Virus record (IMG/VR): IMGVR_UViG_3300021399_000310
Coordinates: 1-36,204 of that record
Strand: one strand, 5' to 3'
Length of the DNA: 36,204 nt
From: a virus
The notes beneath the pieces were generated by a model. That model searched no databases. It saw only the letters and a list, made by a program, of their open reading frames with translations, and was not told where the DNA came from. A program made the position numbers and the translations under genes. Below, piece after piece: positions 1 through 25,594 of the stretch (position 1 is the first letter of the stretch; each line of letters starts with the position of its first letter).

Positions 1-127
1 TCCATGAGTATCAGCCTTATAACGAAGGCACTGTTTATGTAAACATGTTGCAGAACTCACAAACATGGACAGGATGGAAAGCACTTCCGTCAATAGACGA
101 GATGAAAGCGTCGTGGGCGAATTATGG
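1..127. repeat. 127-bp terminal direct repeat, identical to 36078..36204 (circular-contig overlap)
   Basis: Read base by base: tccatgagtatcagcc...gggcgaattatgg occurs at both ends of the window. Confidence 0.95.
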
Positions 128-809: not shown

Positions 810-829
810 TCAGAAAGGAAGGTAAAACA

Positions 830-1597
830 ATGAAATCAGTACAGGACTTTATTAGTCGGTACATCGGCAGACGCATCGATGATGACTACGTCGCAAATGT
901 GCAGTGCGTAGACGGATTTAGAATTGGGTGCAAGTACTGGGGCTACCCGGCGATGCGCACAGAGACAGGATGGGCGGACGGTTATTGGTTTGCCCGGTAT
1001 GATCAGGGATGGGACAAGTATTTTGAATTCGTTACCAATCCCAAAGCACTGCGTCCGGGTGATTGGTGCTTCTGGGCAATCGGCTCTAAGTCATGCCCTT
1101 CGTCTCATGTATCGATGTTCGTAGGATACACGAACACCCTCAAAACAGCCGGAGAGTTTTTCGGAGAGAATCAGGGCGGAAACGGCGGATTTACCAAAGG
1201 CGTTATCTCATTGGATATCTGCGGAGCCTTCAGACCGAAAGCACTGATAAACACAACCAAAACAACAGAGTGGGTCACATCGCTGTACAAGAACATTTTG
1301 CACCGGACACCGGACAGCGGAGGACTCACGGCATGGGTCAACAGCATCGAGAACGGAACACTTGCGAAGTCGGTAGTGGCTTCGTTTTTTAATAGCCGTG
1401 AGTATCTGAACAAAAAGACCACAGACGAGCAGTTCATCACAGACTGCTACAGCGGTTATCTTCAGAGGAAACCGGATAAGTCGGGAACGGCACACTGGAC
1501 AAAGACGCTCAGGACAAAAGGCAGAAGCGCAGTGTTGAACGGCTTCGGGAATTCTGCCGAGTTTAAGCGTTTAATCGCAAAATATGGGGTAAAATAG
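830..1597 (+). CDS. Endolysin: N-terminal CHAP amidase/peptidase plus two DUF4214-like C-terminal repeats
   Basis: RBS GAAAGGAAGG lies upstream of ATG 830. Catalytic-type Cys (NVQCVDGF) and His (SSHVSMFVGY) are present. The repeats are LYKNILHRTPDSGGLTAWV and CYSGYLQRKPDKSGTAHW. Confidence 0.85.
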   Translation: MKSVQDFISRYIGRRIDDDYVANVQCVDGFRIGCKYWGYPAMRTETGWADGYWFARYDQGWDKYFEFVTNPKALRPGDWCFWAIGSKSCPSSHVSMFVGYTNTLKTAGEFFGENQGGNGGFTKGVISLDICGAFRPKALINTTKTTEWVTSLYKNILHRTPDSGGLTAWVNSIENGTLAKSVVASFFNSREYLNKKTTDEQFITDCYSGYLQRKPDKSGTAHWTKTLRTKGRSAVLNGFGNSAEFKRLIAKYGVK

Positions 1598-1895: not shown

Positions 1896-2259
1896 AATCA
1901 ACACGGTCTGGATCTTCATTGGCAAAGTTGGCGTATTTCTCGGCGTGATCGTGGCGATCGTGCAAGCCGTGAAGTATCTTGTCAGCCTCATGCCGACGAC
2001 AAAGCTGGACAACCGGGTGAAGGAAATCGAAGGGAAGCAAGCGAATGACTACGAACATCTCAAAGAGATCGACCGAAGGATTGAGCATCTGGAGCAGACA
2101 GTCAACGCAACGCAGACGCAGATTAAGGAAGTCAATGAAGGTATTCAGAGGATAGGCAAAAGCCAGATCTCTTTACTGCGTCATATGATCGACGGCAACG
2201 GCATCGACAAAATGAAGGAAGAATCTGAGGAACTGACGGAGTTCTTTATAACGAGGTGA
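1882..2259 (+). CDS. Membrane-anchored coiled-coil protein of the lysis cassette (BhlA/UviB-like architecture)
   Basis: ATG 1882 overlaps the holin stop. N-terminal TM segment VWIFIGKVGVFLGVIVAIV, followed by a heptad-like charged helix (IEHLEQTVNATQTQIKEVNEGIQ). Confidence 0.55.
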   Translation: MDLNEINTVWIFIGKVGVFLGVIVAIVQAVKYLVSLMPTTKLDNRVKEIEGKQANDYEHLKEIDRRIEHLEQTVNATQTQIKEVNEGIQRIGKSQISLLRHMIDGNGIDKMKEESEELTEFFITR

Positions 2260-2261
2260 CC

Positions 2262-2528
2262 ATGGAAGAAGACAAAACACTGACAATTCCGTACTTCGCC
2301 CACGAGGGCATGATGGTCAGAGCAGAGCGGACGAACCACCGGCTCTGGATCTTGTGTATCGTGCTCATTGTTTCACTGATCGCAACGAACCTTGCATGGA
2401 TTCTTTACGAATCGCAATGGGAGGTGTACGAAGAACAGGTTGTTGAACAGGAATCGACAACCGGAGCGAACAACTTCATCGGAAGGGATGGAAATATTGG
2501 CGATGGCGAAGCAGACAGTAACAACTAG
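2262..2528 (+). CDS. Small single-pass membrane protein (lysis-associated)
   Basis: GAGGTG RBS, then ATG 2262. TM segment LWILCIVLIVSLIATNLAWILY with an acidic tail. Confidence 0.6.
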   Translation: MEEDKTLTIPYFAHEGMMVRAERTNHRLWILCIVLIVSLIATNLAWILYESQWEVYEEQVVEQESTTGANNFIGRDGNIGDGEADSNN

Positions 2529-2649
2529 ACGCGGGCGCAGAAGAAGGGGAAGCGGAACAACGTCCGGTGGGTATGTGCAGTGCCTCCGTTGTCACGGAAC
2601 TGGTAGAGTTCGCAAAGGCGGAAACGCAAGAGGTAAGTCAAAGAAATGA
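2503..2649 (+). CDS. Possible 48-aa basic peptide with one CxxCxGxG (DnaJ-type zinc-finger) motif
   Basis: Sequence MAKQTVTTRRGRRRRGSG...CLRCHGTGRVRKGG. It fills an otherwise 117-nt gap, and its stop forms an ATGA overlap with the next gene. Codon bias is ambiguous. Confidence 0.3.
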   Translation: MAKQTVTTRRGRRRRGSGTTSGGYVQCLRCHGTGRVRKGGNARGKSKK

Positions 2650-3320
2650 ATGAACGGAAGTATTGCGTTTACAAACACACTTCACCCGACGGTCGCATTT
2701 ATATTGGGTTAACCAAAAACGACCCGAAAGTTAGGTGGCAAGGCGGGACTGGTTACAGAGGGAATTCATACTTTACTAGAGCCATCAAAAAATACGGTTG
2801 GGAAAGTTTTAAGCATGAAATAATTGCCAAAAATTTAACCGAACTCGAAGCCAAAACGATGGAAATTCAACTCATTGCTAAATTCAGAAGCAACGAAAGA
2901 AAGTTTGGATTCAATATCTCTAGTGGCGGAGAATCAAAAAAAGGGACGAAAATATCCGCCGAACAAAAAAGGCAAATTCGTGAAGCAAACATCGGTAAAA
3001 TTGTTTCGCAAGAAACAAGAGAAAAACTTCGCCAACGGTCTTTAGAAACGTGGAAAAATAAAGACCATGTAAGCCATATGCGAGAAATCAACCTTGGCAT
3101 CAATAACCCGCAATACGGAAAGAAATTGACTGATAAGGAAAAACTCAAAAGAGGCGCAAAACAAGTATCGCAGTTCACGATAAGCGGAGAACACATTGGT
3201 AATTATATTTCCATACATGAAGCCTCAAAACAAACAGGAATAAGCCGCGATGTAATTTCTAAGTGTTGCAAAGGAATGTTCAAACAAGGCGGTGGATTCG
3301 TATGGGAGTTAATGATGTGA
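2646..3320 (+). CDS. Free-standing GIY-YIG homing endonuclease (I-TevI/Seg-like) with NUMOD3 repeats and a C-terminal HTH
   Basis: YCVYKH...GRIYIGLT (GIY-YIG), with the downstream R, E (MEIQLI) and N (FGFNISSGG) positions. Repeated (S/T)xExRxK motifs. C-terminal IHEASKQTGISRDVISKCC. The region is visibly AT-richer than its flanks. Confidence 0.9.
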   Translation: MNERKYCVYKHTSPDGRIYIGLTKNDPKVRWQGGTGYRGNSYFTRAIKKYGWESFKHEIIAKNLTELEAKTMEIQLIAKFRSNERKFGFNISSGGESKKGTKISAEQKRQIREANIGKIVSQETREKLRQRSLETWKNKDHVSHMREINLGINNPQYGKKLTDKEKLKRGAKQVSQFTISGEHIGNYISIHEASKQTGISRDVISKCCKGMFKQGGGFVWELMM

Positions 3321-3556
3321 AGACTTTCGTAGACTTATCACGAAGTGATGTTGAACACTTGATCGACGAGTGGATATTCAGCGAGAGAGACCGCGCGATC
3401 CTGAAGCGGCGGATCCTCGACGGCATCTGCTTCGAACCGCTGGCGGAAGAATTCGATCTGTCTGTCCGTCAGGTAAAAACGATCGTTTACAGATCGGAAA
3501 AAACCATATACAAGCACGCGGTTTCTTTCAAGACAGAAAGAGAGGAAATCCCCTGA
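3302..3556 (+). CDS. Small sigma-70 region-4-like HTH transcription regulator
   Basis: Sequence DEWIFSERDRAILKRRILDGICFEPLAEEFDLSVRQVKTIVYRSEKTIY matches the sigma r4 / YlxM-type pattern. The start is uncertain: ATG 3302 or GTG 3317. Confidence 0.7.
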   Translation: MGVNDVKTFVDLSRSDVEHLIDEWIFSERDRAILKRRILDGICFEPLAEEFDLSVRQVKTIVYRSEKTIYKHAVSFKTEREEIP

Positions 3557-3583
3557 TACTAATTCTTTTCCGCGTGCAGTATA

Positions 3584-3612
3584 CAGACCCTGAAAAGGGT
3601 CTGTTTTTTTTT
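3584..3612 (+). terminator. Rho-independent terminator
   Basis: Stem CAGACCC / GGGTCTG, 6-nt loop, then nine T. Confidence 0.85.
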
Positions 3613-3742
3613 GCTCTTTTGGTGTACATTATTGGCGTCTTCTGGGAATCTTTGTGACACTTTTGAGCAGTTTTTTATTCATCCTTGCGGAAAGCGGCGA
3701 AAGCCGTTTTTCGTTTCCCATAATTTGCACAAAATCTGCACG

Positions 3743-3773
3743 GCAGCTTCATCGTAAAAGCTGCTCTTTTTTT
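3743..3773 (+). terminator. Terminator-like hairpin immediately upstream of the 3802 operon (a weaker hairpin lies at 3691-3711)
   Basis: Stem GCAGCTT / AAGCTGC followed by TCTTTTTTT. The weaker one is AAAGCGGC-GAAA-GCCGTTTT. Confidence 0.6.
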
Positions 3774-3801
3774 GCACAATGAAGGCGAAAAGAGGGCGTG
3801 T

Positions 3802-4194
3802 ATGTTTATAGAAACGAACCGTAACCCGATGAAGAAACGGGTCGGCGACTGCGTGATCCGTGCGCTTTCGGCGGTCATGAATGAACCGTGGGATCGGGTG
3901 TACATCGACGTCATGCTGGAAGGCTTCAGTCTGAAAGACATGCCGTCGGCAAACTATGTCTGGGGCGCTTATCTGAAGCGGAACGGATACATCCGGGAAA
4001 CGATCCCGAATACCTGTCCGAAGTGCTACAGCGTTAAAGACTTCTGCAAAGATCATCCGGAAGGACGGTACATTCTCGGAACCGGCCAGCATGCGATCGC
4101 CGTGATCGACGGCGACTATCTCGATACATGGGACTCAGGCGACGAGGTTCCGGTTTTCTATTGGAAGAAAGGAGATCCGTATGGCGACATATAA
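3802..4194 (+). CDS. Cassette gene A: small Cys...His protein (possible papain-like fold), function unknown
   Basis: RBS AGAGGG. Motifs KRVGDCVIRALS and GQHAIAVIDGDYLDTWDSGDEVPVFYW. From memory this is a family widespread in gut phages and always unannotated. Confidence 0.7.
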   Translation: MFIETNRNPMKKRVGDCVIRALSAVMNEPWDRVYIDVMLEGFSLKDMPSANYVWGAYLKRNGYIRETIPNTCPKCYSVKDFCKDHPEGRYILGTGQHAIAVIDGDYLDTWDSGDEVPVFYWKKGDPYGDI

Positions 4195-4588
4195 TCCATA
4201 TTTTCCCGTCGGCTATCAGCCGTACAATTTCCCGTACGCGGCGCAAAACAGCCCGTCTGACGCGGCACAGAATATCCCGCAGGGAATGGCAGCGCCACAG
4301 AGACAGACGCAGCAGAGCCCGATCTTATGGGTGCAGGGAGAAGCCGGAGCGAAGGCATTCCCGGTCGCACCGAATCAGACGGTGCAGCTCTGGGATTCGG
4401 AAGCCCAGGTAATTTATCTGAAATCAGCAGACACGAGCGGAATGCCGACGATGAAGGTTCTGGACTACACGATTCGGGAACAGAACAGCCCGATCAGCCC
4501 GGTGGTGAAATCTTCGCCGGACTACATCACGCGGGAAGAGTTTGAGAAGAGGCTCGCAGAGCTGAAGGAAAAGAGGGCGGAAGAATGA
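4181..4588 (+). CDS. Cassette gene B: P/Y/Q-rich N-terminus plus a beta-rich domain, unknown function
   Basis: RBS AAAGGAGA. Overlaps gene A by 14 nt. Contains ILWVQGEAGAKAFPVAPNQTVQLWDSEAQVIYLKSADTSGMP. Confidence 0.75.
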   Translation: MATYNPYFPVGYQPYNFPYAAQNSPSDAAQNIPQGMAAPQRQTQQSPILWVQGEAGAKAFPVAPNQTVQLWDSEAQVIYLKSADTSGMPTMKVLDYTIREQNSPISPVVKSSPDYITREEFEKRLAELKEKRAEE

Positions 4589-4782
4589 ACCCGATCTATC
4601 AGCAGTACGGACGCGGCAACCAGCCGCAAAACATCCTGCAGCAGTTCCAGCAATTCCGGCAGAACTTCAGCGGGAATCCGCAGCAGATCGTGCAGAACAT
4701 GCTCAACAGTGGACAGATCACACAGGAACAGGTCAACCGGGCAACGCAGATCGCGAACCAGCTGATCCGTTTCATCAAATAG
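4585..4782 (+). CDS. Cassette gene C: 65-aa Q/N-rich protein, unknown function
   Basis: ATGA overlap with gene B. Sequence NILQQFQQFRQNFSGNPQQIVQNMLNSGQITQEQ. Confidence 0.7.
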   Translation: MNPIYQQYGRGNQPQNILQQFQQFRQNFSGNPQQIVQNMLNSGQITQEQVNRATQIANQLIRFIK

Positions 4783-4830
4783 ACTTCAACCCAAGCGCGC
4801 AGGGATTGAATAAAAAGAGGAGACGAAAAA

Positions 4831-5637
4831 ATGGCATTAACAGACGAAAACGGTGCCGGCATGGTTATGCCCGTGGCACCCATGTATGGCGGAAGCGGTA
4901 CAGGCTTCGGTGACGGATTCGGCGGCAGCGGCTGGTGGATCCTGCTGCTTTTCATCCTGCTCGGAAACGGAGCGTGGGGAAATTGCGGCGGAAACGGAAC
5001 CGGCGGTCTTTATCCGTGGATGAATCAGAGCCAGCAGATCAACGGTGGTTTCCGTGATCAGATGCTCGGCAGTCAGCTGACAGGCATTCAGAGCGCTGTC
5101 ACAAGCGGCTTCGGCGATGTTCAGACGGCTCTTTGCAGCGGCTTTGCCGGAGTAAATGCGGGAATCGCGAACGGCTTCTCGCAGGCAGAGATTGCAAACA
5201 ACGCCCGTCAAATGGCAAACATGAATCAGACCTTTGCTTTACAGTCTGCTCTGCAGAACTGCTGCTGCGAGAACCGCGCAGGGCTGGCAGACGTCAAGTA
5301 CACGGTCGCAACAGAGGCTTGCGCTGATCGCGCAGCCGTATCGGATGCACTGCGTGACGTGATCGCTTCACAGACAGCAAGCACACAGAGGATTCTGGAT
5401 CAGCTCTGCGCCGATAAGATCGAGGCGAAGAACGACACGATCGCACAGCTGCGCAGCGAACTCATGTACGCACGCGGACAGGCTTCTCAGGACGTACAGA
5501 CGGCAGCGATTCAGGCAGGCCAGAGAGCACTTGCAAACGAAGTCGAGCAGTATGTACTGCCCACGCCGCGCCCGGCTTACATCGTGCAGAACCCGAACTG
5601 CTGCGTACAGAACCCTTGCGGTTGCGGCAACTTCTGA
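4831..5637 (+). CDS. Cassette gene D: Gly-rich, single-TM, Cys-cluster protein, unknown function
   Basis: RBS AGAGGAG. Gly-rich GSGTGFGDGFGGSG, then TM segment WWILLLFILLG. Also GF repeats, CCCEN, and a C-terminal NPNCCVQNPCGCGNF. Confidence 0.75.
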   Translation: MALTDENGAGMVMPVAPMYGGSGTGFGDGFGGSGWWILLLFILLGNGAWGNCGGNGTGGLYPWMNQSQQINGGFRDQMLGSQLTGIQSAVTSGFGDVQTALCSGFAGVNAGIANGFSQAEIANNARQMANMNQTFALQSALQNCCCENRAGLADVKYTVATEACADRAAVSDALRDVIASQTASTQRILDQLCADKIEAKNDTIAQLRSELMYARGQASQDVQTAAIQAGQRALANEVEQYVLPTPRPAYIVQNPNCCVQNPCGCGNF

Positions 5638-5648
5638 GGTAAACCGCC

Positions 5649-6098
5649 ATGGCAGAGTATTTAGCAAACGCCGAGCAGACGGTCGCGCTTAACGCGCCGG
5701 TGCTCTTCACTGCTTCCATCCCATGTCAGAAGGGGTATGTATACCACGAAGACGAGACCGGGATCTTTATTCTCCGCGGCATTACACAGAACTGCTTCGC
5801 GCGATACCAGGTGACTTACAACGGAAACATCGCGATCCCTGAGGGAGGCACGGTCACGCCGATCGGCGTCGCAATCGCGGTCAACGGGGAACCGAGACCG
5901 ACGAGCCGGGCAATCTTCACACCGGCTGCGGCTGAGGAATACGGAAACGTCACGAGCACGGCGATCATCACCGTTCCTCGCGGCTGCTGCTTCAGCCTTT
6001 CGGTCAGAGCGGTTGACGGCACAACGCTTGCAGCAGACGAGGCAGCGCCGGAAATTTCCGTCATTAACTCGAATCTGGTCATAAATCGCATAGCATGA
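5649..6098 (+). CDS. Cassette gene E: all-beta protein, possibly a TNF/C1q (BclA C-terminal-like) jelly-roll
   Basis: RBS GAGGT. Alternating beta-type pattern (YQVTYNGNIAIP, GVAIAVNGEP, AIITVPRGCCFSLSVRAV). The fold call is from pattern memory only. Confidence 0.65.
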   Translation: MAEYLANAEQTVALNAPVLFTASIPCQKGYVYHEDETGIFILRGITQNCFARYQVTYNGNIAIPEGGTVTPIGVAIAVNGEPRPTSRAIFTPAAAEEYGNVTSTAIITVPRGCCFSLSVRAVDGTTLAADEAAPEISVINSNLVINRIA

Positions 6099-6108
6099 GG
6101 AGGAGAAG

Positions 6109-6504
6109 ATGCACGATATTTACAAACTGAAGGACATGCTGACCGACGAGCTTGAGGAATACGGACGGAAAGGTGAACTGTCTGCCGGTTCTCTGGAGAT
6201 CATCGATAAGCTGTCCCACGCGCTGAAGAGCGTCACAACGATTCTGGCAATGGAAGACAGCGACCAGAGCCATTGGGGCTATCCGCCGTATTCACGCGAG
6301 CAGAACCGCGGAAACAGCGACAGAGGAAACTCGTACACGGGCAGATCATACCCCCGCCGGGACTCGATGGGCAGATACAGCCGGGAGTACTCCGGAGCGG
6401 TTGACGATATGATCGAACAGCTGCGCACCATGATGGACGAAGCGCCGGATCAGAGCACGAGAGCAGAGATCCAGCGGCTCGTCGCGAAAATGGAAAAAAT
6501 GTGA
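6109..6504 (+). CDS. Cassette gene F: helical protein with a central R/S/Y/G-rich disordered segment
   Basis: RBS GAGGAGGAG. Sequence REQNRGNSDRGNSYTGRSYPRRDSMGRYSREYSG, flanked by helices. Confidence 0.75.
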   Translation: MHDIYKLKDMLTDELEEYGRKGELSAGSLEIIDKLSHALKSVTTILAMEDSDQSHWGYPPYSREQNRGNSDRGNSYTGRSYPRRDSMGRYSREYSGAVDDMIEQLRTMMDEAPDQSTRAEIQRLVAKMEKM

Positions 6505-6830
6505 TACGGGAAGAGGATCTGCGGGAAGCCATCGCAGAATGCAACGGAGAGAGGAACCCGAACGCGAGCACATGCCTGAAGCTCGCAGCGTACTATACGA
6601 TTCTTAACAACATGAAAGGCACAGATCCGGAGCCGGTGAAGGCTGAAGCGCTGCCGCCTGCGTATTCGTTTGCGCCGCCGGAGTATACCAGCGACACGGA
6701 ATTCGGAAGGCTGATCAGCGAAAAAGACACATACACGGTGCTCGAAATCATGGACGAACTTATGGAGACGCTGCGGATCATGTACCCGCGCTTATATGAC
6801 GCAGTTTTGCGTAAATTGACCGCCGAATAA
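6501..6830 (+). CDS. Cassette gene G: small protein, unknown function
   Basis: GTG start in a GTGA overlap with the stop of gene F. Coding-like third-position GC. Followed directly by a terminator. Confidence 0.6.
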   Translation: MIREEDLREAIAECNGERNPNASTCLKLAAYYTILNNMKGTDPEPVKAEALPPAYSFAPPEYTSDTEFGRLISEKDTYTVLEIMDELMETLRIMYPRLYDAVLRKLTAE

Positions 6831-6848
6831 TTGGCGGTCTTTTTTTTT
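6818..6848 (+). terminator. Rho-independent terminator closing the 3802-6830 operon
   Basis: Stem GACCGCC / GGCGGTC, then nine T. It overlaps the stop codon. Confidence 0.85.
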
Positions 6849-6859
6849 GCAAAAAAGGG

Positions 6860-6888
6860 TTGATAATATACTGCGAGAAGTATACAAT
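6860..6888 (+). promoter_or_regulatory. Near-consensus sigma-A/sigma-70 promoter
   Basis: TTGATA (6860-6865), 17-nt spacer, TACAAT (6883-6888). It lies 30 nt upstream of the AAGGAG RBS of the 6920 gene. Confidence 0.6.
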
Positions 6889-6919
6889 AATAGTGCAAGA
6901 TGAAAAGGAGATTAAGAAC

Positions 6920-7288
6920 ATGACAAAGACTAAGATTTACGGAAACGAGAAGACGAACCTCAAGCTCACGGCGGCTGCCGAGTATGTGCGGAACCAGACA
7001 GACCCGCTCGACATCATGGAACACATCGAAGAAGACGGCACTATCTGGTACTCGGTCAGAGAGGACTACACGGACGGATTCTACGGATGCTACACCGCCG
7101 ACGAGATCAACGAGCACATCGAAGAGCTTATGGACGAAGCGGAATTCGTTCTGAACGCGGACGAGCCGGAACACTACGGCGCGGATGCTGAAAACGGCAT
7201 GGTTCTCACGTTCAGCGAGATCAAACGCCTCGCGAAAGAATGGGACGTACCGATCGACCTGATCATGGCAGACATGGAGGCAAAATGA
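6920..7288 (+). CDS. Highly acidic 122-aa protein (about 25% D/E), unknown function; DNA-mimic-like composition
   Basis: RBS AAGGAG. I counted 30 D/E against about 10 K/R. Confidence 0.75.
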   Translation: MTKTKIYGNEKTNLKLTAAAEYVRNQTDPLDIMEHIEEDGTIWYSVREDYTDGFYGCYTADEINEHIEELMDEAEFVLNADEPEHYGADAENGMVLTFSEIKRLAKEWDVPIDLIMADMEAK

Positions 7289-7464
7289 GCACAGAGAGCG
7301 AGAAGCGGGCGAAAAATAAATACGGGCGGGAGCGGATGACCTCGATCGCCTTCAGGCTTCACAATGAGAACGACGCGGAACTGATCGAGATTTACAGGAG
7401 CATCCCGGACAAAGCCGGGTGGTTCCGGGAAGTGCTCAGGGAATACAAAAGGCGGGCAAAATGA
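7285..7464 (+). CDS. Small RHH/Arc-like DNA-binding protein
   Basis: GGAGG RBS and an ATGA overlap. Sequence KRAKNKYGRERMTSIAFRLHNENDAELIEIYRSI shows the beta-strand plus helix pattern of ribbon-helix-helix proteins. Confidence 0.6.
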   Translation: MSTESEKRAKNKYGRERMTSIAFRLHNENDAELIEIYRSIPDKAGWFREVLREYKRRAK

Positions 7465-7609: not shown

Positions 7610-8860
7610 TTATTCTGCGGACTTTTCCCAGCAAATAAGGGCAATTGCAGCACTCAGACGCAGCGCCCAATACTTCCGGAGAATGGCGGTGCGTGGTTCT
7701 TCGTGGCGTTTGTTTTTCGGCTGGAATTCGGCTGGCGCTTCCAGAGACCGCGCCTTGAGCGCTTCGTACAGCTGATCGTCGGTCGACCGGGCATAATCGA
7801 GGGTCATTCCAAACGACGAATGCCCGAGAATGTCCCTGGCTATGAGCGAATTTCCGGCATTGATCAATTCCGTGGACATGAGATGCCGCAGCATATAAGC
7901 GTGAAAGTCTATCCCCTCACGAGCTGCGACATCGTGAATGATATCGGAGATCGCGGAGACACTGCGCGGCTTTCCGTGCCGATCGGCGAGAAGCAGATCA
8001 TACCGTGCCCAGAGAAGCAGATCCGAGAGTATAGGGCGCAGGTCCTCAGCGACCGGAACACGGCGCACAGACTCGTCGGTTTTCGTTGGGACGATCTGCC
8101 GCTTTGCTTTTGATGTTGACCCGACCTGTTTTGTGATCGAAATGAACGTCGGGTGAATATCATCCCGTGTCAGGGCAAGACCCTCAGCAGGGCGGCAGCC
8201 GGTGAAGTACATGATCAGCAGCAGGTACCAGATGCACCGGCTGTCATACGCTTCGACACCGCGGTTGTTATACAGCAGAACCGCGTCCAGAATCCGCGAG
8301 AAGTCTGCCATGGTCATTGATTGGTTCCTGCGCTGGATGACTTTCTTCGACTTCGGAACGACCACGGCGATGGTTTTGTCCTCGATCGGATATTCCAAAA
8401 TCACGCAGACCCGGTACAACTGTTTCCAGATCGACATGAGCCGGTGGATCGCATCGTCTGAATGGTTTTCTGCGTACGCATTGATCGTCGCCTGTATATC
8501 AGCGACAGAGACTTTGTTGATCGGCGTGTCGGCGAGATCGGCGAGAGCCTTCCGGAAGATCGTGTCCTGCTTTTCCTTGGTTGCTACGGATAGAGGCAGG
8601 ACTTCCTGCTTCAGCTCATACAGGCGACCGACCGTGGGATAGACGGCGCGGATCTTCCCGGCGGCAATATCCAGCAGGGCGTTGTTTCTGATCTTCTGGG
8701 CGAGAGCCAGGGCGGCTTTTTCGCTGCCGCAGTCAACGACCCGGACCGTTTCCGTGAACCGCTGCCGCCTGCCGGCGTCATCCGTATAGGGTATCTCAAC
8801 GAGAAAAGCAGATCCGTAAGACCGGGAGCGTTTTCTGATGTACTTTGTGTCTTTTGCCAT
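7610..8860 (-). CDS. int: Tyrosine integrase (site-specific recombinase) with an N-terminal arm-type DNA-binding domain
   Basis: Arg in GCRPAEGLAL, H-x-x-R in AYMLRHLMS, and GHSSFGMTLDYAR (His...Tyr). GAGG RBS 8 nt before ATG 8860. Confidence 0.92.
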   Translation of the reverse strand: MAKDTKYIRKRSRSYGSAFLVEIPYTDDAGRRQRFTETVRVVDCGSEKAALALAQKIRNNALLDIAAGKIRAVYPTVGRLYELKQEVLPLSVATKEKQDTIFRKALADLADTPINKVSVADIQATINAYAENHSDDAIHRLMSIWKQLYRVCVILEYPIEDKTIAVVVPKSKKVIQRRNQSMTMADFSRILDAVLLYNNRGVEAYDSRCIWYLLLIMYFTGCRPAEGLALTRDDIHPTFISITKQVGSTSKAKRQIVPTKTDESVRRVPVAEDLRPILSDLLLWARYDLLLADRHGKPRSVSAISDIIHDVAAREGIDFHAYMLRHLMSTELINAGNSLIARDILGHSSFGMTLDYARSTDDQLYEALKARSLEAPAEFQPKNKRHEEPRTAILRKYWALRLSAAIALICWEKSAE

Positions 8861-8952
8861 AACCAAACCTCAAATCAAAAAACCAAACCAAAACCAAAAC
8901 GAAACCAAAGAAAACCAAACAGAAACCAAACCATAACCAAAGGAAAACCAAA
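8861..8952. repeat. Block 1: eight same-strand AACCAAA repeats at 10-11 bp phasing
   Basis: Copies start at 8861, 8881, 8892, 8903, 8913, 8924, 8935 and 8946. The first copy abuts the int start codon (ATG 8860-8858 on the minus strand). Confidence 0.9.
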
Positions 8953-12304: not shown

Positions 12305-12578
12305 CGGGATAAAACGGTGTTACTTCACCCACGAATATTGCGGGAGAAACGGCGCGCCGCTGGAGAAGCACCACATCATGAACGGCGCGCTTCGCGATTG
12401 GGCGGAAGAGGAAGGTCTCTGGATATGGGTAGACCCGGAGATTCACCGGCAGCTGCACGAGACGTCCTTCGGGGCTTTGGTACAGAAAAGGCTTCTGAAA
12501 CAGATCGCCCAGATCGCATACGAGAAGACCCACAGCCGGGAAGAATGGATGAGGAAAGTGGGGAAGAACTATGTCTGA
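12279..12578 (+). CDS. Small HNH-like (beta-beta-alpha-Me) protein
   Basis: Sequence CYFTHEYCGRNGAPLEKHHIMNG...DPEIHRQLH. The start is re-assigned to ATG 12279; the upstream part of the track ORF is R-rich alternative-frame noise. Confidence 0.55.
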   Translation: MSQSIIQTDGIKRCYFTHEYCGRNGAPLEKHHIMNGALRDWAEEEGLWIWVDPEIHRQLHETSFGALVQKRLLKQIAQIAYEKTHSREEWMRKVGKNYV

Positions 12579-13227
12579 AGACAGACGGGAAGGATTCGTG
12601 TTTTATCGGTCATACGTCGAAGCGATCCGAGAGCTTCCAGCAGATCAGATGAAGAGGATCTTCCTCGCAATCGCAGACTATGCGCTGGACGGGATCGAAA
12701 CAGAAGACGAAGATCCGACGGTGAATATGGTCATGTGCCTCGTAAAACCGCAGATAGACGCGAACACAAGGCGCTACAGAAACGGCACAAAGGGCGGAAG
12801 ACCGAAGAAGGCAGAAGAACCGGAGCCGGTAAAGCAGGAACCGCGCCAGAAGCCCGCAAAAGCGGGTTGTGAAGCGATTCTACTGAACGATGGGAGCGAA
12901 TGGCAGCCGGACGAAGATGAGTATGCCGAATATGTTCGCCTGTTTCCGGGCGTGAACGTCGGCGAGGAATTCGTAAAAATGCGGTCATGGTCAATCGCGA
13001 ACGGATCGAAGAGGAAGACGCGGAACGGGATCCGGCGCTTCGTTCACAATTGGCTCAGCAAAGAGCAGGACAGAGCAACGGCGAAAACAGGAAACACCGG
13101 CGGAAGAATCACAATCCCAACGCCTCAATACATAAAAGACGCCATGAACGGCGTTGCGGTGGAAGAAGAAAAGCCGTCGGAAGAAATGATCAGAAAATTC
13201 GAAGAAAGGATGAAGACGAAAAAATGA
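12571..13227 (+). CDS. Replication/replisome-organiser-like protein
   Basis: N-terminal GFVFYRSYVEAIRELPADQMKRIFLAIADYALDG and C-terminal RKTRNGIRRFVHNWLSKEQ. The family name is recalled only loosely. Confidence 0.6.
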   Translation: MSEDRREGFVFYRSYVEAIRELPADQMKRIFLAIADYALDGIETEDEDPTVNMVMCLVKPQIDANTRRYRNGTKGGRPKKAEEPEPVKQEPRQKPAKAGCEAILLNDGSEWQPDEDEYAEYVRLFPGVNVGEEFVKMRSWSIANGSKRKTRNGIRRFVHNWLSKEQDRATAKTGNTGGRITIPTPQYIKDAMNGVAVEEEKPSEEMIRKFEERMKTKK

Positions 13228-13655
13228 ACAGAGTGACATTGATTGGGAACCTCGCGAAGGACACCCAGGTATCGAAGACAGGCACAGGAATTTCTGTCTG
13301 CCAGTTTGTGTTGGCGGTCAGCAAGCGGTACGACCGGGAAGCTGCGCCGGATTACATCAACTGCGTAGCGTGGCGGCAGAGCGCCGATTACATCGGGCAG
13401 TACGGGAACAAGGGCGACACCGTTGCGGTAGACGGACGCCTTCAGACGCGCTCGTATGAGGCACAGGACGGTTCCAAGCGCTATGTGACCGAAGTCATCG
13501 CAGACGAGGTGAACATCGTCAGGAAGAAGGCGGCACAGCCGCAGCAGGCACCGGCAGCGCAGCAGCAGGCAGCGCCGGCACCGGAACCGGTAGCAGAACC
13601 AGCAGCAGAACCGGACAACTACATCGAGATCGGCGAAGACGATCTGCCTTTCTGA
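13224..13655 (+). CDS. ssb: Single-stranded DNA-binding protein
   Basis: OB-fold signature MNRVTLIGNLAKD...FVLAV...WRQSA, a Q/A/P linker, and the acidic tip DDLPF. ATGA overlap with the upstream gene. Confidence 0.92.
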   Translation: MNRVTLIGNLAKDTQVSKTGTGISVCQFVLAVSKRYDREAAPDYINCVAWRQSADYIGQYGNKGDTVAVDGRLQTRSYEAQDGSKRYVTEVIADEVNIVRKKAAQPQQAPAAQQQAAPAPEPVAEPAAEPDNYIEIGEDDLPF

Positions 13656-13664
13656 GGTGATGAC

Positions 13665-14060
13665 ATGAGGAAGACCATCTGCGTATGTGATCGCTGCGGG
13701 AAGCAGATCGAGGGCAGCCTGTACGGCATCGTGATCAACGAGTACGAGACGCTCGGCGACGATCTGCCGACAGGCACTGTAAAAACACCGGACGCTCAGA
13801 AGGAACTCTGCCCGGACTGCATGAAGGCGCTGGTGAGCAATCTTGCCGCATTCATGGACACCGAGGCAAAGCCGCACAAGAGGACGACGAAGAAAAAGAA
13901 GGCAGCGGCACCAGCTGCGACGAAGATCGACAGAGGGAAGATCCTCGCGCTGCACAATGCCGAGTGGACAGTCAAGAACATCGCCGGCGAGATGGGGTGC
14001 TCAGAACAGACAGTGTACAACGTTCTGAAGGAGGCGACAGCCAATGCGGGCAGTAATTAA
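13665..14060 (+). CDS. Zn-ribbon (CxxC...CxxC) plus C-terminal HTH protein
   Basis: CDRCGK...CPDCMK, a K-rich linker, then WTVKNIAGEMGCSEQTVYNVL. Confidence 0.65.
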   Translation: MRKTICVCDRCGKQIEGSLYGIVINEYETLGDDLPTGTVKTPDAQKELCPDCMKALVSNLAAFMDTEAKPHKRTTKKKKAAAPAATKIDRGKILALHNAEWTVKNIAGEMGCSEQTVYNVLKEATANAGSN

Positions 14061-14346
14061 GAGACCCGGCAGTTCTCCGGACGTCATCGAGATCGAGAAC
14101 ACGCTGGAAGCGCTGCAAAGCGCCGTCGGCGGATACATCGAGGCAGTGACGGTGGCAAAGAACGCGGTCATCATCTGCGACGAAGAAGGGCTCTTAAAAA
14201 TGAAGCCGAGAAATGTGCAACTTTTTGGGATCAGAATATACGGAACCTTCCTGATTGTCGGCACAAAGGACGAAGACTTCTGCGACGTGCCGGACGAAGA
14301 GGGGTGGCTGGACATTCTCGACCGGAAGGATCTGGTCTTATGGTAA
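14044..14346 (+). CDS. DUF3846-like protein
   Basis: Sequence IENTLEALQSAVGGYIEAV...ICDEEGLL...GTFLIVG. Confidence 0.6.
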   Translation: MRAVIKRPGSSPDVIEIENTLEALQSAVGGYIEAVTVAKNAVIICDEEGLLKMKPRNVQLFGIRIYGTFLIVGTKDEDFCDVPDEEGWLDILDRKDLVLW

Positions 14347-14567
14347 AGGCTGCACAGCTGAGCATATTCAACAACCGGGGAACGAGACCGTGTGAGTACA
14401 GCTTCGACCGGTATATCGGGCAGAAGGTCGACATCATGATCGGGTCATATTATGACGGAAGAGTCGAGGAAGGCACGGTCATTGAGATCAGGCCATATTA
14501 CACGGTGGTAAAAGTCGGCAAGGAATACCTTGCCGGCACACCGTACAACCTTTCGGAGGCGGAATGA
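14340..14567 (+). CDS. Hypothetical protein
   Basis: ATG 14340 overlaps the upstream stop. Coding-like. Confidence 0.55.
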   Translation: MVKAAQLSIFNNRGTRPCEYSFDRYIGQKVDIMIGSYYDGRVEEGTVIEIRPYYTVVKVGKEYLAGTPYNLSEAE

Positions 14568-14914
14568 AAAGCACATCGGTGAAACAACTGAGTCTGTTCT
14601 GGCAGCCTGAGGAAGAAGCCCAGGAACCAAAAGAACCACCAAAAGAACAACAGAACAAGAGCGCAGAACCAGAAGAACCAGCCGCCGAAGATGACGACAT
14701 GATCGAGCTGCTTCGGGCGGCTGACGAGTGCGCAAAATGCCACGTCAAGCCGGTGTTCTATACAAGCCCGAACCACATCAGCATACAGGGGTACCGGTTC
14801 ACCTATGTTGGTATGAAATGCCCGCTGTGCGGCTTCAGCTGCGGCGGGCGGAGCGGCGAGGACATGTACACGGTCGAGCATTGGAACGACTGTAACAGGA
14901 AATTCAACCGGTGA
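14564..14914 (+). CDS. Zn-ribbon protein, Lar (restriction alleviation)-like C-terminus
   Basis: Sequence CAKCHVKP...CPLCGFSCGG...TVEHWN. The N-terminus is acidic and P/E-rich. Confidence 0.5.
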   Translation: MKSTSVKQLSLFWQPEEEAQEPKEPPKEQQNKSAEPEEPAAEDDDMIELLRAADECAKCHVKPVFYTSPNHISIQGYRFTYVGMKCPLCGFSCGGRSGEDMYTVEHWNDCNRKFNR

Positions 14915-14926
14915 GAGGAGAGAAGA

Positions 14927-25433: not shown

Positions 25434-25486
25434 CTGAGTTACTGAACAGTTCCGCACCCAATAGAGAAGAAGTCCCGCTGGAGTCA

Positions 25487-25591: not shown

Positions 25592-25594
25592 AAC

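What the first reader, a model, noticed from the sequence alone, without database searches (positions are those of the whole stretch)
3802..6830. Terminator-insulated 7-gene operon of unassignable proteins in the moron position (candidate undescribed accessory system)
Seven tightly coupled genes lie between the lysis module and the integrase, where temperate phages carry lysogenic-conversion cargo. Their junctions include overlaps at 4181-4194 (14 nt), an ATGA at 4585-4588 and a GTGA at 6501-6504, plus good ribosome-binding sites. Terminators bracket the block at 3584-3773 and 6818-6848. None of the products looks like a virion, replication or lysis protein. They are: A, a small Cys...His protein; B, P/Y/Q-rich plus a beta domain; C, a 65-aa Q/N-rich protein; D, Gly-rich with one TM and multiple Cys clusters; E, all-beta and jelly-roll-like; F, with an R/S/Y/G-rich disordered core; and G, a small protein. 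From memory, individual members recur as hypothetical proteins in Clostridia genomes and gut phages, but I know of no assigned function. The composition (low complexity, Cys clusters, a TNF/C1q-like fold, a membrane anchor) suggests an envelope or surface assembly. Possible roles are superinfection exclusion, cell-surface or spore-surface remodelling, or a matrix-like structure. All of these are hypotheses.
Basis: partly seen in the sequence, partly recalled or inferred. Interest (0 to 1): 0.8.

Follow-up and report, generated by a model that had tools for sequence, protein, structure and literature searches.

The report
Conserved seven-gene phage cassette, function unknown
The seven genes are a real, separately transcribed cassette that thousands of gut and rumen Clostridia phages carry just after their lysis genes; none of its proteins has a known function, but one has the fold of spore-surface (BclA/BxpB) proteins and another looks like a new papain-type enzyme.

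Summary
Genes A-G (3802-6830, + strand) are tightly coupled, with the stated overlaps, and lie between intrinsic terminators.

The block is strongly co-conserved. In 116 related loci with enough flank, D and E occur in 116, B in 112, F in 109, A in 104, C in 102 and G in 57, almost always in the order ABCDEF(G). It follows endolysin genes but is unlinked to any particular tail or lysis module.

It also occurs in phages with no integrase seen, including the lytic isolate Butyrivibrio phage Ceridwen. It is therefore not cargo of temperate phages only.

No product matches Pfam, NCBIfam, PADLOC or PDB sequences.
- E models (pLDDT 83) as a TNF/C1q jelly-roll closest to the BclA C-terminal domain and BxpB/ExsFA.
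- A models (pLDDT 92) as a divergent papain-like fold with invariant Cys-His-Asp.
- D is a Gly/Cys-rich helical protein with one short hydrophobic anchor.
- B, C and F are low-complexity proteins.

A composite terminator/sigma-A-type promoter precedes A in many loci.

Best reading, at moderate-to-low confidence: a portable phage operon whose products assemble inside the cell into one membrane-tethered protein structure. Its role is unresolved.

The parts
2256..2528 (+). 'o': 90-aa protein with one strong hydrophobic helix. It is an optional upstream companion of the cassette.
   Evidence: Kyte-Doolittle 19-residue maximum 2.64 at residues 32-50. Homologues precede the cassette in 50 of 116 loci, usually as o-u-A. 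No Pfam or PHROG hit.
2646..3320 (+). GIY-YIG/NUMOD homing endonuclease inserted between 'o' and 'up2'. It is not part of the cassette proper.
   Evidence: Pfam GIY-YIG and NUMOD1; phrog_314 homing endonuclease, E 3e-36. It is absent from this position in most related loci.
3305..3556 (+). 'up2': small sigma-70-region-4-like HTH protein, a candidate regulator encoded just upstream.
   Evidence: Only weak Sigma70_r4/Mor hits in the window copy. Sigma70_r4 matched 16 members of the pooled alignment A11, which holds 20 up2-family sequences; the per-member assignment is not listed, best E 1.5e-8. 70% identical to the Ceridwen ORF at the same position. Present in 64 of 116 loci.
3583..3612 (+). Intrinsic terminator after up2.
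   Evidence: 9-bp stem (5 GC pairs), 4-nt loop, T8 tract.
3742..3780 (+). Composite element: a terminator hairpin (3742-3765) with a T-tract (3767-3773), followed at once by a -10-like hexamer CACAAT (3775-3780), 22 nt before the start codon of A.
   Evidence: The same layout (hairpin, T-tract, then nAnAAT 6-13 nt after the stem end, then SD and ATG) recurs in most of 34 distinct loci that have a strict terminator.
3802..4194 (+). A: 130-aa candidate papain-like cysteine enzyme.
   Evidence: Invariant D16, C17, R20, H97, D108, W110 and S112, plus C72xxC75. AF2 pLDDT 91.7. Only weak papain-like fold matches: Josephin-2 (E 0.029, TM 0.44), staphopain, UfSP2, PLpro, TssM, Tae4. phrog_3754, unknown function.
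4181..4588 (+). B: a variable P/Y/Q-rich N-terminus, a conserved ~50-aa domain (IWVQGE..A..Y.VAP...V.L.D....IY.KSAD.SG) and a C-terminal helix.
   Evidence: Alignment A10. phrog_21718. Present in 112 of 116 loci. PDB profile search gives only coiled-coil noise.
4585..4782 (+). C: 65-aa basic protein rich in Q and N.
   Evidence: 26% Q, 14% N, pI 10.9. phrog_22984. Present in 102 of 116 loci.
4831..5637 (+). D: 268-aa core component. It has a conserved N-terminal peptide, Gly-rich flanks around a short hydrophobic anchor, a long helical A/Q/N-rich region with an invariant CCC, and a Cys/Gly-rich C-terminus.
   Evidence: Alignment A4. 11 Cys, pI 4.5. Hydropathy 1.49. The family has 1166 clusters at 50% identity; the 150 best listed are 110-361 aa. 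No module family shares an ORF with another in the fetched loci. PDB profile search gives only helical-bundle or coiled-coil matches. Present in 116 of 116 loci.
5649..6098 (+). E: 149-aa TNF/C1q-type jelly-roll protein, the most conserved member of the cassette.
   Evidence: AF2 pLDDT 83.4, pTM 0.78, all-beta. Foldseek PDB top hits: F-BclA C-terminal domain 9h38 (E 4e-7, TM 0.70-0.77), BclA C-terminal domain 1wck/3twi, BxpB 8d02, ExsFA 7r1m, then EDA, C1q and 4-1BBL. BFVD: standalone 130-143-aa gut-phage proteins, TM up to 0.91. At least 8000 clusters at 90% identity. Median 62% identity across loci.
6109..6504 (+). F: helical N- and C-terminal segments around an R/S/Y/G-rich, probably disordered core.
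   Evidence: Sequence. Weak phrog_28802 hit. Present in 109 of 116 loci. It is the least conserved member, median 36% identity.
6501..6830 (+). G: 109-aa acidic protein that I read as mostly helical. It is a facultative last gene.
   Evidence: Present in 57 of 116 loci, always after F. 46% identical to the Ceridwen ORF at the same position. No family hit.
6818..6849 (+). Intrinsic terminator closing the operon. It overlaps the stop codon of G.
   Evidence: 9-bp stem (6 GC pairs), 4-nt loop, T-tract. A strict terminator follows the last cassette gene in 81 of 157 loci, against 0.35 in shuffles.

Best explanation
A-G is a portable, self-transcribed accessory operon of tailed phages that infect Clostridia. 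It sits after the lysis genes and moves between otherwise unrelated phage backbones.

My reading is that its products work together as one multi-subunit, membrane-tethered protein assembly built inside the infected or lysogenic cell.
- E is a trimer-type TNF/C1q jelly-roll like the BclA C-terminal domain and BxpB. It would be the conserved building block or docking platform.
- D is the Gly/Cys-rich helical stalk that tethers the assembly through its short hydrophobic segment.
- B, C, F and G are low-complexity or helical linker and scaffold subunits.
- A is a papain-type Cys-His-Asp enzyme that trims or cross-links a component, or possibly a host target.

Transcription starts at a sigma-A-type promoter nested in the upstream terminator, so the block is insulated from the late operon.

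**Shown:** the operon anatomy, the co-conservation and fixed order, the independence from virion and lysis modules, the presence in phages with no integrase seen, the fold of E, the catalytic-type invariants of A, and the lack of export signals.

**Inferred:** physical assembly of the products, the D-E pairing, the activity and substrate of A, promoter function and timing, and the biological role. My leading guesses for the role are a structural scaffold or coat, or a membrane-face barrier that benefits the phage in both lytic and lysogenic settings.
For: - **Coupling.** Overlapping or abutting genes with ribosome-binding sites.
- **Co-conservation.** Order ABCDEF(G) holds across about 160 loci from IMG/VR and GTDB. 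D and E occur in 116/116 loci, B 112, F 109, A 104, C 102. Reduced versions keep D and E: DE, BDE, BDEF.
- **No link to virion or lysis modules.** The window's tail and lysis proteins have homologues in 0-5 of 97 loci, against 95 for D and E.
- **Position.** The cassette always follows endolysin or amidase genes. Downstream neighbours are integrase, helicase or small unknown genes.
- **Not temperate-only.** It is present in Ceridwen, for which no integrase is annotated and only lytic growth has been seen.
- **Protein content.** Pfam and NCBIfam detect no enzyme domain in any product; A is the only candidate enzyme. The other products are compositionally structural: Gly-, Cys-, Q/N-, P/Y- and R/S/Y-rich.
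- **E.** It has the BclA C-terminal domain / BxpB fold. It is the most conserved member, as expected for a subunit with several protein interfaces and not for a fast-evolving receptor binder.
- **D.** It has a strongly conserved N-terminal peptide and invariant Cys clusters.
- **Location in the cell.** Six of the seven products lack any export signal.
- **Own transcription unit.** Terminators and a -10 element mark it off.
Against: - No direct evidence shows that the proteins interact. No multimer modelling was possible.
- The hydrophobic segment of D is short, so membrane insertion is uncertain.
- A-family proteins also occur alone in the early regions of Bacillus Tsamsa-like phages, Geobacillus phage GBK2 and Lak megaphages. 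A may therefore act on a host target independently of B-G.
- The promoter is inferred from sequence pattern only. In the window the -10 (CACAAT) and the putative -35 are weak.
- A portable virion decoration that binds a generic capsid or tail fold is not excluded.
- The role of the proposed assembly is unknown.
Confidence: 0.4

Rival explanations
1. The cassette is lysogenic-conversion cargo expressed from the prophage, and it remodels the cell envelope or the spore surface (an exosporium-like layer) or excludes superinfecting phages.
For: - The position next to the integrase in the window and in Dulem virus 33.
- The position at the prophage end next to host genes in Vescimonas fastidiosa MM35.
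- A sigma-A-type promoter and terminators of its own, like classical morons.
- The best structural matches of E are the exosporium proteins BclA and BxpB/ExsFA.
- The Cys-, Q- and R/S/Y-rich compositions recall spore-coat proteins (my own knowledge).
- Many host families are spore-formers.
Against: - The cassette is present in Ceridwen, which has been seen only growing lytically, has no integrase annotated, and infects a host I know as a non-spore-former.
- In many loci replication genes follow the cassette instead of an integrase.
- Six of the seven products have no signal peptide, so a cell-surface location is unlikely. A mother-cell location would avoid this problem, but only in spore-formers.
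- Cargo genes usually turn over quickly, whereas this block is kept in thousands of phages.
- There is no sequence membership in the BclA_C, ExsF or YjcZ families.
Confidence: 0.2
2. The proteins are accessory virion components added late. An example would be a decoration or adhesion fibril with the TNF-like E trimer as its head and D as its stalk.
For: - The block is co-directional with, and immediately downstream of, the late structural and lysis genes.
- TNF/C1q-like heads are common on viral fibres. Lower-ranked Foldseek hits include the cyanophage A-1(L) short tail fibre, the phi812 central spike knob and collagen/C1q proteins of giant viruses.
- The proteins have no export signals, as expected for virion proteins.
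- The block is present in lytic as well as temperate phages.
Against: - The cassette is unlinked to any tail or capsid module: 0-5 of 97 loci share the window's tail proteins.
- It is separated from the late operon by terminators and has a promoter-like element of its own.
- E is the most conserved member, not the most variable one, unlike receptor-binding heads.
- No structural PHROG category was assigned.
- E has no N-terminal attachment or shaft domain.
Confidence: 0.15
3. The block is a co-travelling set of host-takeover or anti-defence genes. A would be a deubiquitinase-like or other papain-type protease that removes a host defence factor. The other products would be inhibitors or decoys acting more or less independently.
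For: - A homologues stand alone in early regions next to a Ser/Thr kinase and an Ocr-like anti-restriction gene in Bacillus phage Izhevsk, and next to RecE/RecT in GBK2.
- The weak fold matches of A are mostly Ub/Ubl proteases: Josephin-2, UfSP2, PLpro, TssM.
- A host-type promoter would give early or constitutive expression.
- A small HTH gene (up2) is associated with the block. This is reminiscent of the regulators found next to anti-CRISPR loci (my own knowledge).
Against: - The strict gene order, translational coupling and near-universal co-occurrence of B-F with D and E argue for one machine rather than independent inhibitors.
- D (268 aa, Cys-rich, hydrophobic anchor) and the low-complexity proteins are unlike typical small anti-defence proteins.
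- The cassette is highly conserved, whereas arms-race genes usually diversify quickly.
- The fold evidence for A is weak (E 0.029, TM 0.44).
Confidence: 0.15
4. The block is a lysis accessory module. Its proteins would control lysis timing or help disrupt the envelope after holin and endolysin have acted.
For: - The block invariably lies just after the holin and endolysin genes.
- One or two membrane-active proteins are associated with it: 'o', and D with its hydrophobic segment.
- A has a Cys-His-Asp pattern that is also found in CHAP and NlpC/P60 wall hydrolases (my own knowledge).
Against: - There is no match to lysis PHROGs.
- The block is separated from the lysis genes by terminators.
- The endolysin types upstream are highly diverse while the cassette stays constant.
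- A has no export signal or wall-binding domain, and its fold matches are to proteases, not amidases.
Confidence: 0.05

Closest known systems
BclA C-terminal domain and BxpB/ExsFA, the TNF/C1q-like exosporium proteins of the Bacillus cereus group (PDB 1wck, 3twi, 9h38, 8d02, 7r1m)
   Same: E has the same jelly-roll fold, with TM about 0.70-0.77 and Foldseek E 4e-7 to 1e-5. Like BxpB/ExsFA, it is a standalone protein of about 150 aa with no signal peptide.
   Different: - Sequence identity is only 12-17%, and E has no Pfam BclA_C hit.
- E has no collagen-like region.
- It is encoded by phages, including a phage of a non-spore-forming host.
- It has four conserved Cys, including a CC pair.
- Its partners (D, B, C, F) have no counterparts among the known exosporium genes.
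- It is not related to the F-ENA pilus subunits, which are DUF4183 proteins.
Type II membrane TNF-superfamily ligands and C1q-family proteins (anchor, then stalk, then trimeric head)
   Same: Taken together, D (short N-terminal tail, hydrophobic anchor, long helical stalk) and E (TNF-fold head) reproduce this architecture. EDA, 4-1BBL and C1q are among the fold matches.
   Different: - Here the architecture is split over two genes, and no D-E fusion was found in any locus.
- E has no export signal, so any D-E complex would sit on the cytoplasmic side.
- There is no sequence relationship.
Morons, or lysogenic-conversion cassettes, carried between the lysis module and attR or the integrase in temperate phages of Gram-positive bacteria (for example the toxin and immune-evasion genes of S. 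aureus and S. pyogenes prophages; my own knowledge)
   Same: The position is the same, the block has its own promoter-like element and terminators, and it moves between phage backbones.
   Different: - It has six or seven co-conserved genes instead of one or two.
- It is kept in thousands of phages instead of being sporadic.
- It is also present in phages where no integrase was seen.
Papain-like cysteine proteases and isopeptidases (Josephin, staphopain, UfSP, PLpro) and the phage 'putative peptidase' family phrog_3754
   Same: A has invariant Cys, His and Asp in papain order, with the Cys at the start of a helix. Its best, though weak, fold matches are papain-like enzymes. It is a member of phrog_3754 (E 1e-28). 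Some Bacillus phage records annotate homologues as 'putative peptidase'.
   Different: - There is no significant structural or sequence match to any characterised family.
- It is only about 125 aa long.
- It carries an extra invariant CPxCY motif.
- Neither activity nor substrate is known.
Spore coat and exosporium assembly sets (Cys-rich ExsY/CotY, R/S/K/Y-rich CotG/ExsB, Q-rich GerQ with the Tgl transglutaminase; my own knowledge)
   Same: There is a compositional analogy. The cassette combines a Cys-rich protein (D), an R/S/Y-rich disordered protein (F), Q-rich proteins (B, C), a TNF-fold protein (E) and a papain-superfamily-type enzyme (A).
   Different: - No homology was detected to any of these families.
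- The genes lie in phages, not in sporulation regulons.
- The hosts include non-spore-formers.

Membership tests
BclA C-terminal domain / C1q-TNF-like fold | Ten-stranded jelly-roll (TNF/C1q) fold | tested here: met
   AF2 model: pLDDT 83.4, pTM 0.78. Foldseek probability 1.00, TM 0.64-0.77 to 9h38, 3twi, 1wck and 2z5w.
BclA C-terminal domain / C1q-TNF-like fold | Sequence membership in the Pfam BclA_C or C1q models | tested here: not met
   No Pfam family matched at E <= 1. No NCBIfam hit. No PDB sequence hit at E <= 10 with a family profile.
BclA C-terminal domain / C1q-TNF-like fold | N-terminal collagen-like (GXY) stalk on the same polypeptide | tested here: not met
   E is 149 aa and the jelly-roll domain covers residues 2-147. 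It has no GXY repeats.
BclA C-terminal domain / C1q-TNF-like fold | Homotrimer formation | not testable with these tools
   No multimer prediction was available.
BxpB/ExsFA exosporium anchor proteins | Standalone TNF-fold protein of about 150-170 aa | tested here: met
   TM 0.72 to 8d02 and 0.68-0.70 to 7r1m, with similar length.
BxpB/ExsFA exosporium anchor proteins | Encoded in spore-formers and incorporated into the exosporium | tested here: not met
   E is encoded in phage genomes. These include a phage seen only growing lytically on Butyrivibrio fibrisolvens and prophage contigs of Lachnospira and Pseudobutyrivibrio. That these hosts do not sporulate is my own knowledge.
Papain-like cysteine peptidase superfamily (protein A) | Catalytic Cys (at the N-terminus of a helix), then His, then Asp/Asn, all conserved | tested here: met
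   C17, H97 and D108 are invariant in 36 and in 118 sequences. Helix 17-26 starts at C17, and H97 and D108 lie on or next to beta strands 98-102 and 105-108.
Papain-like cysteine peptidase superfamily (protein A) | Significant structural similarity to a characterised member | tested here: inconclusive
   The best match is Josephin-2 6pgv: E 0.029, probability 0.82, TM 0.44. Other papain-like matches have E > 0.1.
Papain-like cysteine peptidase superfamily (protein A) | Membership in a curated peptidase family (Pfam or NCBIfam) | tested here: not met
   No hit. The PDB profile search gave only a chance CxxC match to a glutaredoxin.
Moron (autonomous accessory transcription unit in a phage genome) | Own promoter and terminator, inserted between conserved phage modules | tested here: met
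   Terminators flank the block. A -10-like element follows the upstream T-tract in most loci. The promoter is a sequence inference only. The flanks are lysis genes upstream and lysogeny or replication genes downstream.
Moron (autonomous accessory transcription unit in a phage genome) | Expressed from the repressed prophage | not testable with these tools
   This needs RNA-seq of a lysogen such as Vescimonas fastidiosa MM35.
Known anti-phage defence systems (PADLOC-DB) | Any component matches a defence-system model | tested here: not met
   No hits for A-G, 'o' or up2 at E <= 0.1.
Virion structural module | Match to structural PHROGs or Pfam families, and co-inheritance with a given tail or capsid type | tested here: not met
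   All PHROG hits are 'unknown function'. The window's tail proteins are shared by 0-5 of 97 loci that carry D and E. Absence from virions was not tested experimentally.
YjcZ-type tiny Gly-rich membrane sporulation proteins (N-terminus of D) | Match to the NCBIfam model of the family | tested here: not met
   No NCBIfam hit for D at E <= 1. The resemblance is compositional only and comes from memory.

The most novel reading that the evidence does not exclude
The cassette builds a previously unrecognised kind of phage-made supramolecular structure. This would be an exosporium-like, Cys-cross-linked protein lattice or coat of TNF-fold trimers (E) on helical stalks (D). The low-complexity proteins (B, C, F) would glue it together and a dedicated papain-type enzyme (A) would mature it. 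It would assemble at the inner face of the membrane, or around phage DNA or progeny, in infected Clostridia.
Probability: 0.15. Interest if true: 0.85.

Novelty: new variant of a known kind. Interest (0 to 1): 0.6.

Why it matters
- **It is common.** The block is among the most frequent uncharacterised gene sets in phages of gut and rumen Clostridia. E and A each have at least 8000 clusters at 90% identity, and D has 1166 clusters at 50% identity.
- **It is under selection.** It keeps its gene order while hopping between unrelated phage backbones. It is also invaded by homing endonucleases, which target conserved DNA. Both facts point to strong selection for a function nobody has described.
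- **What could be learned.** If the products form a structure, it would be a new thing that small siphoviruses build in addition to the virion. It would also link a fold known from spore surfaces to phage biology. If the products instead act on the host, A defines a new small papain-type enzyme family that is also found in Bacillus jumbo-size siphoviruses and in Lak megaphages.
- **It can be tested.** Two culturable entry points exist: the lytic phage Ceridwen on B. fibrisolvens DSM 3071, and the Vescimonas fastidiosa MM35 lysogen.

Tried and rejected
- **DNA similarity.** blastn of 3500-7300 against 50,697 phage records found no match. Relatives are visible only at the protein level.
- **Family libraries.** Pfam, NCBIfam and PADLOC on all seven products gave nothing significant. 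A pooled Pfam scan of 138 family members returned only Sigma70_r4 and other HTH families (which I attribute to up2), two TMP_2 hits and single chance hits. I could not trace the two TMP_2 hits to the seven D homologues I rescanned, so I dropped that lead.
- **PDB sequence profiles.** Searches for A, E, B and D gave nothing, or only coiled-coil and helical-bundle noise.
- **RNA genes.** Rfam at gathering thresholds and tRNA searches over the whole window found none.
- **F-ENA spore appendages.** I rejected this idea. Those fibres are made of DUF4183 subunits, and only their tip protein shares the fold of E.
- **A 'TGCAC-N6-TGCAC' operator upstream of the hairpin.** It is visible in the window and a few loci, but my pattern found it in only 6 of 62 loci with up2 upstream. 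I report it only as a lineage-specific feature.
- **First terminator screen.** My first, loose criteria were too permissive (110/130 observed against about 83/130 in shuffles). I replaced them with strict criteria.
- **Literature.** Searches for BclA-like proteins in prophages and for phage deubiquitinases found nothing describing this cassette.
- **Gene fusions.** No D-E or other fusion was found that could prove an interaction.

Full report
**1. The observation**

The window is a complete circular phage genome. Its ends share an exact 127-nt repeat, which gives a unit of about 36,077 bp. It carries tail genes, an endolysin (DUF4214 C-terminal domain), a holin, a tyrosine integrase on the minus strand (7610-8866) and early or replication genes.

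| Gene | Coordinates (+ strand) |
|---|---|
| A | 3802-4194 |
| B | 4181-4588 |
| C | 4585-4782 |
| D | 4831-5637 |
| E | 5649-6098 |
| F | 6109-6504 |
| G | 6501-6830 |

- The A/B overlap is 14 nt, B/C share ATGA and F/G share GTGA.
- GGAG/GAGG-type ribosome-binding sites precede A-F.
- Terminator-like hairpins with T-tracts lie at 3583-3604, 3742-3765 and 6818-6839.
- Rfam and tRNA searches of the window are empty.

**2. The block is a conserved unit, and wider than one phage type**

There is no nucleotide-level match among 50,697 phage records. At the protein level, however, all seven genes and the small gene just upstream (up2) recur in the same order in Butyrivibrio phage Ceridwen. Identities are A 44%, B 59%, C 46%, D 41%, E 62%, F 36%, G 46% and up2 70%, and Ceridwen has one extra ORF between E and F. 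They recur again in Dulem virus 33, where an HNH endonuclease sits between C and D and an integrase follows G.

I fetched 80 IMG/VR loci and 80 GTDB loci using an E profile and ran iterative searches on six-frame ORFs. Among 116 loci with enough flanking sequence:

| Gene | Loci with the gene (of 116) |
|---|---|
| D | 116 |
| E | 116 |
| B | 112 |
| F | 109 |
| A | 104 |
| C | 102 |
| up2 | 64 |
| G | 57 |
| 'o' (small membrane protein) | 50 |

- The order ABCDEF(G) is almost invariant. Reduced forms keep D and E.
- The families are very large. E and A each have at least 8000 clusters at 90% identity. D has 1166 clusters at 50% identity; the 150 best listed are 110-361 aa, and no ORF in the fetched loci combines two module families.
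- Every source that gives a name calls these proteins 'hypothetical'.
- Host assignments are Lachnospiraceae, Oscillospiraceae, Ruminococcus and Acutalibacteraceae, mostly from rumen and gut. A cultured lysogen exists, Vescimonas fastidiosa MM35.

**3. Genomic context**

- The two ORFs upstream of the unit are predominantly endolysins or amidases of many different PHROG families.
- The two ORFs downstream are integrases in a minority (about 10-13 of 145 ORFs from about 73 loci). Otherwise they are helicases, other DNA-metabolism genes or small unknown genes.
- The window's own tail and lysis proteins have homologues in only 0-5 of the 97 loci with at least 4.5 kb of upstream sequence. D and E are present in 95 of them.
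- The cassette is therefore a mobile unit placed after the lysis genes of otherwise unrelated phages.
- Ceridwen was only ever seen growing lytically, and no integrase or excisionase was found in it (PMC7372960; annotation).
- The cassette is thus not confined to the lysis-integrase gap of temperate phages, although in prophages it does sit at that classical cargo position.

**4. Transcription signals**

Under strict criteria:

| Region | Loci with a terminator | Expected from shuffles |
|---|---|---|
| Within 140 nt upstream of A | 35 of 130 | 0.05 |
| Just after the last cassette gene | 81 of 157 | 0.35 |
| Inside the cassette | 1 of 165 | not computed |

In 34 distinct loci with an upstream terminator, a -10-like hexamer (nAnAAT; for example GATAAT, GAAAAT, TACAAT, TATACT) begins 6-13 nt after the stem end. 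It lies directly after the T-tract and 15-25 nt before the Shine-Dalgarno sequence. Elsewhere such hexamers occur about once per offset.

The hairpin loops are often TTCATTG or TTTATTG. This places a TTG where a -35 element would be expected (my inference).

In the window the elements are the hairpin at 3742-3765, the T-tract at 3767-3773, CACAAT at 3775-3780 and the ATG at 3802.

I read this as a composite terminator and sigma-A-type promoter. Late transcripts stop there and a host-type promoter restarts transcription for A-G. The promoter is a pattern inference and has not been demonstrated.

up2 belongs to a family of small proteins of about 70 aa. Sigma70_r4 matched 16 members of the pooled alignment that holds 20 up2-family sequences; the per-member assignment is not listed. 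It may regulate this junction, but that is speculation. A 'TGCAC-N6-TGCAC' repeat seen in the window is not general.

**5. The proteins**

- **Family searches.** None matches Pfam, NCBIfam or PADLOC. The PHROG hits are all of unknown function.
- **E.** With an 80-sequence alignment it models at pLDDT 83.4 and pTM 0.78 as an all-beta protein.
  - Its best PDB matches are the C-terminal domains of F-BclA and BclA, and BxpB/ExsFA (E 4e-7 to 1e-5, TM 0.64-0.77). EDA, C1q-family proteins and 4-1BBL follow, and some phage fibre and spike domains rank lower.
  - In BFVD the best matches are standalone proteins of 130-143 aa from uncultured gut phages (TM up to 0.91), one of them named 'BclA protein'.
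Sequence membership in BclA_C is not met, and there is no collagen stalk.
  - E is the most conserved member. Median identity to the window copy is 62%, against 36-47% for the others. A host-range determinant would not be expected to behave this way.
- **A.** With 118 sequences it models at pLDDT 91.7.
  - C17 (first residue of a helix), H97 and D108 are invariant, as is a CPxCY motif.
  - Fold matches are weak but almost all papain-like: Josephin-2 (E 0.029, TM 0.44), staphopain, UfSP2, PLpro, TssM and Tae4.
  - A is best called a new, minimal papain-type family with unknown activity.
  - Homologues also occur alone in the early regions of Bacillus Tsamsa-like phages, next to a Ser/Thr kinase and an Ocr-like gene. 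They also occur in Geobacillus phage GBK2 and in Lak megaphages.
- **D.** It has five recognisable parts:
  - a conserved N-terminal peptide, MALTDENG..MVMPVAPMYGG;
  - Gly-rich segments around a short hydrophobic core (WWILLLFILL; hydropathy 1.49, borderline for a membrane span);
  - a LYPW motif;
  - a long A/Q/N-rich region that matches only helical bundles and coiled coils, with an invariant CCC and further invariant Cys;
  - a PAYxVQNPNCC...GCGCG tail.
- **B.** It combines a variable P/Y/Q-rich N-terminus with a conserved domain of about 50 residues and a C-terminal helix.
- **C, F and G.** C is 26% Gln and basic. F has an R/S/Y/G-rich core between helical ends. G is acidic.
- **Export signals.** Only D, and the optional upstream protein 'o', have a hydrophobic segment. 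No product has a signal peptide.

**6. What it most likely is**

The following points suggest one multi-subunit assembly rather than a bag of independent genes:
- tight coupling and a fixed gene order;
- near-universal co-occurrence;
- a D+E core;
- Pfam and NCBIfam detect no enzyme domain in any product, and A is the only candidate enzyme;
- the structural-type compositions of the products.

The products lack export signals, so the assembly would form in the cytoplasm, tethered by D if its hydrophobic segment inserts into the membrane. Together, D (anchor plus helical stalk) and E (TNF-fold head) mimic the layout of type II TNF ligands or of BclA on BxpB, but split over two genes. That is an analogy, not a demonstrated interaction.

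The role of such an assembly is open. My estimates are:

| Reading | Estimate |
|---|---|
| An intracellular, membrane-tethered structural assembly that serves the phage in both lifestyles | about 0.4 |
| A portable virion decoration | about 0.15 |
| A set of anti-defence or host-takeover genes led by protease A | about 0.15 |
| A lysis accessory | about 0.05 |

The spore-surface idea is attractive because of the structural neighbours of E and the coat-like compositions. It is weakened because the cassette occurs in a lytic phage of Butyrivibrio and in Lachnospira and Pseudobutyrivibrio contigs. I know these hosts as non-spore-formers.

**7. Comparison with known systems, and novelty**

The nearest known things are:
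- the BclA C-terminal domain and BxpB, at the level of fold only;
- TNF/C1q ligand architecture, as an analogy;
- classical morons, which share the position and the autonomous transcription;
- papain-like proteases, through the catalytic pattern and weak fold matches.

No membership in a characterised family is met at sequence level. Literature searches found no description of the cassette.

What is demonstrated is a new, unusually large and unusually conserved variant of a known kind of element, an autonomous phage accessory operon. Its content is uncharacterised. Whether it is a categorically new system depends on experiments.

**8. Verdict**

Interest is 0.6. This is a solid, very widespread unknown with tractable experimental entry points, but it has no demonstrated function yet.

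Noticed in passing
window 1-127 and 36078-36204: The two ends of the window share an exact 127-nt direct repeat. The window is therefore a circularly closed assembly of a complete phage genome of about 36,077 bp, and the tail genes at the right end continue into the tail-fibre, endolysin and holin genes at the left end.
   Followed up: partly
window 2646-3320; L003 19040-19591 (- strand); L020, L058, L077, L078: Homing endonuclease genes are inserted at different points in or next to the cassette. The window has a GIY-YIG/NUMOD gene between 'o' and up2. Dulem virus 33 has an HNH gene between C and D. Several IMG/VR loci have GIY-YIG relatives between A and B or before D. Such elements usually target highly conserved phage DNA.
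   Followed up: partly
window 3727-3765; similar sequences in L022, L082, L084, L089, L069, L125: A tandem 'TTGCAC-N5-6-TGCAC/TGCCC' motif abuts the 5' arm of the terminator hairpin just after the up2 stop codon. It is conserved in a subset of lineages only (6 of 62 loci by my pattern). It could be an operator for the sigma-region-4-like up2 protein.
   Followed up: partly
L166 (Bacillus phage Izhevsk) 4965-5360; L165 (Geobacillus phage GBK2) 4977-5366; Lak megaphage records: Standalone homologues of protein A (30-41% identity) lie in the early or host-takeover regions of unrelated phages. In Izhevsk the neighbours are a Ser/Thr kinase and an Ocr-like anti-restriction gene, and in GBK2 they are RecE/RecT. 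Some records call these homologues 'putative peptidase'.
   Followed up: partly
L004 (bajarodcaudo virus 5) 12653-13069: In this distant variant the gene after the D homologue is not an E homologue. It encodes a different 139-aa protein with an N-terminal Cys cluster (MACSQYTNGGYGCGGC...) and no Pfam hit. The partner of D may therefore be exchangeable.
   Followed up: no
L001 (Ceridwen) 24928-25722: Ceridwen carries an extra 264-aa ORF between E and F. It has a weak C-terminal HTH_17 match, and the depositors predicted a promoter just before it. The cassette tolerates insertions at this junction.
   Followed up: no
L168 (Vescimonas fastidiosa MM35, NZ_AP023416.1) 12418-15152: A cultured human-gut Oscillospiraceae strain carries the cassette as six consecutive hypothetical genes, the fourth of which is the E match. 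They follow the holin and amidase genes at the end of a prophage and lie directly next to host lactate permease and dehydrogenase genes. This strain is a usable lysogen for experiments.
   Followed up: partly
window 827-1597: The endolysin has a C-terminal DUF4214 domain (E 9e-26) and only weak N-terminal matches to endolysin PHROGs. None of the fetched related loci shares this endolysin.
   Followed up: no
window 6920-7464: Two small + strand ORFs (122 aa and 74 aa) lie between the cassette terminator and the integrase, behind a promoter-like site at 6860-6888. The second has relatives in 13 loci (12 besides the window), some downstream and some upstream of the cassette. Its function is unknown.
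   Followed up: no
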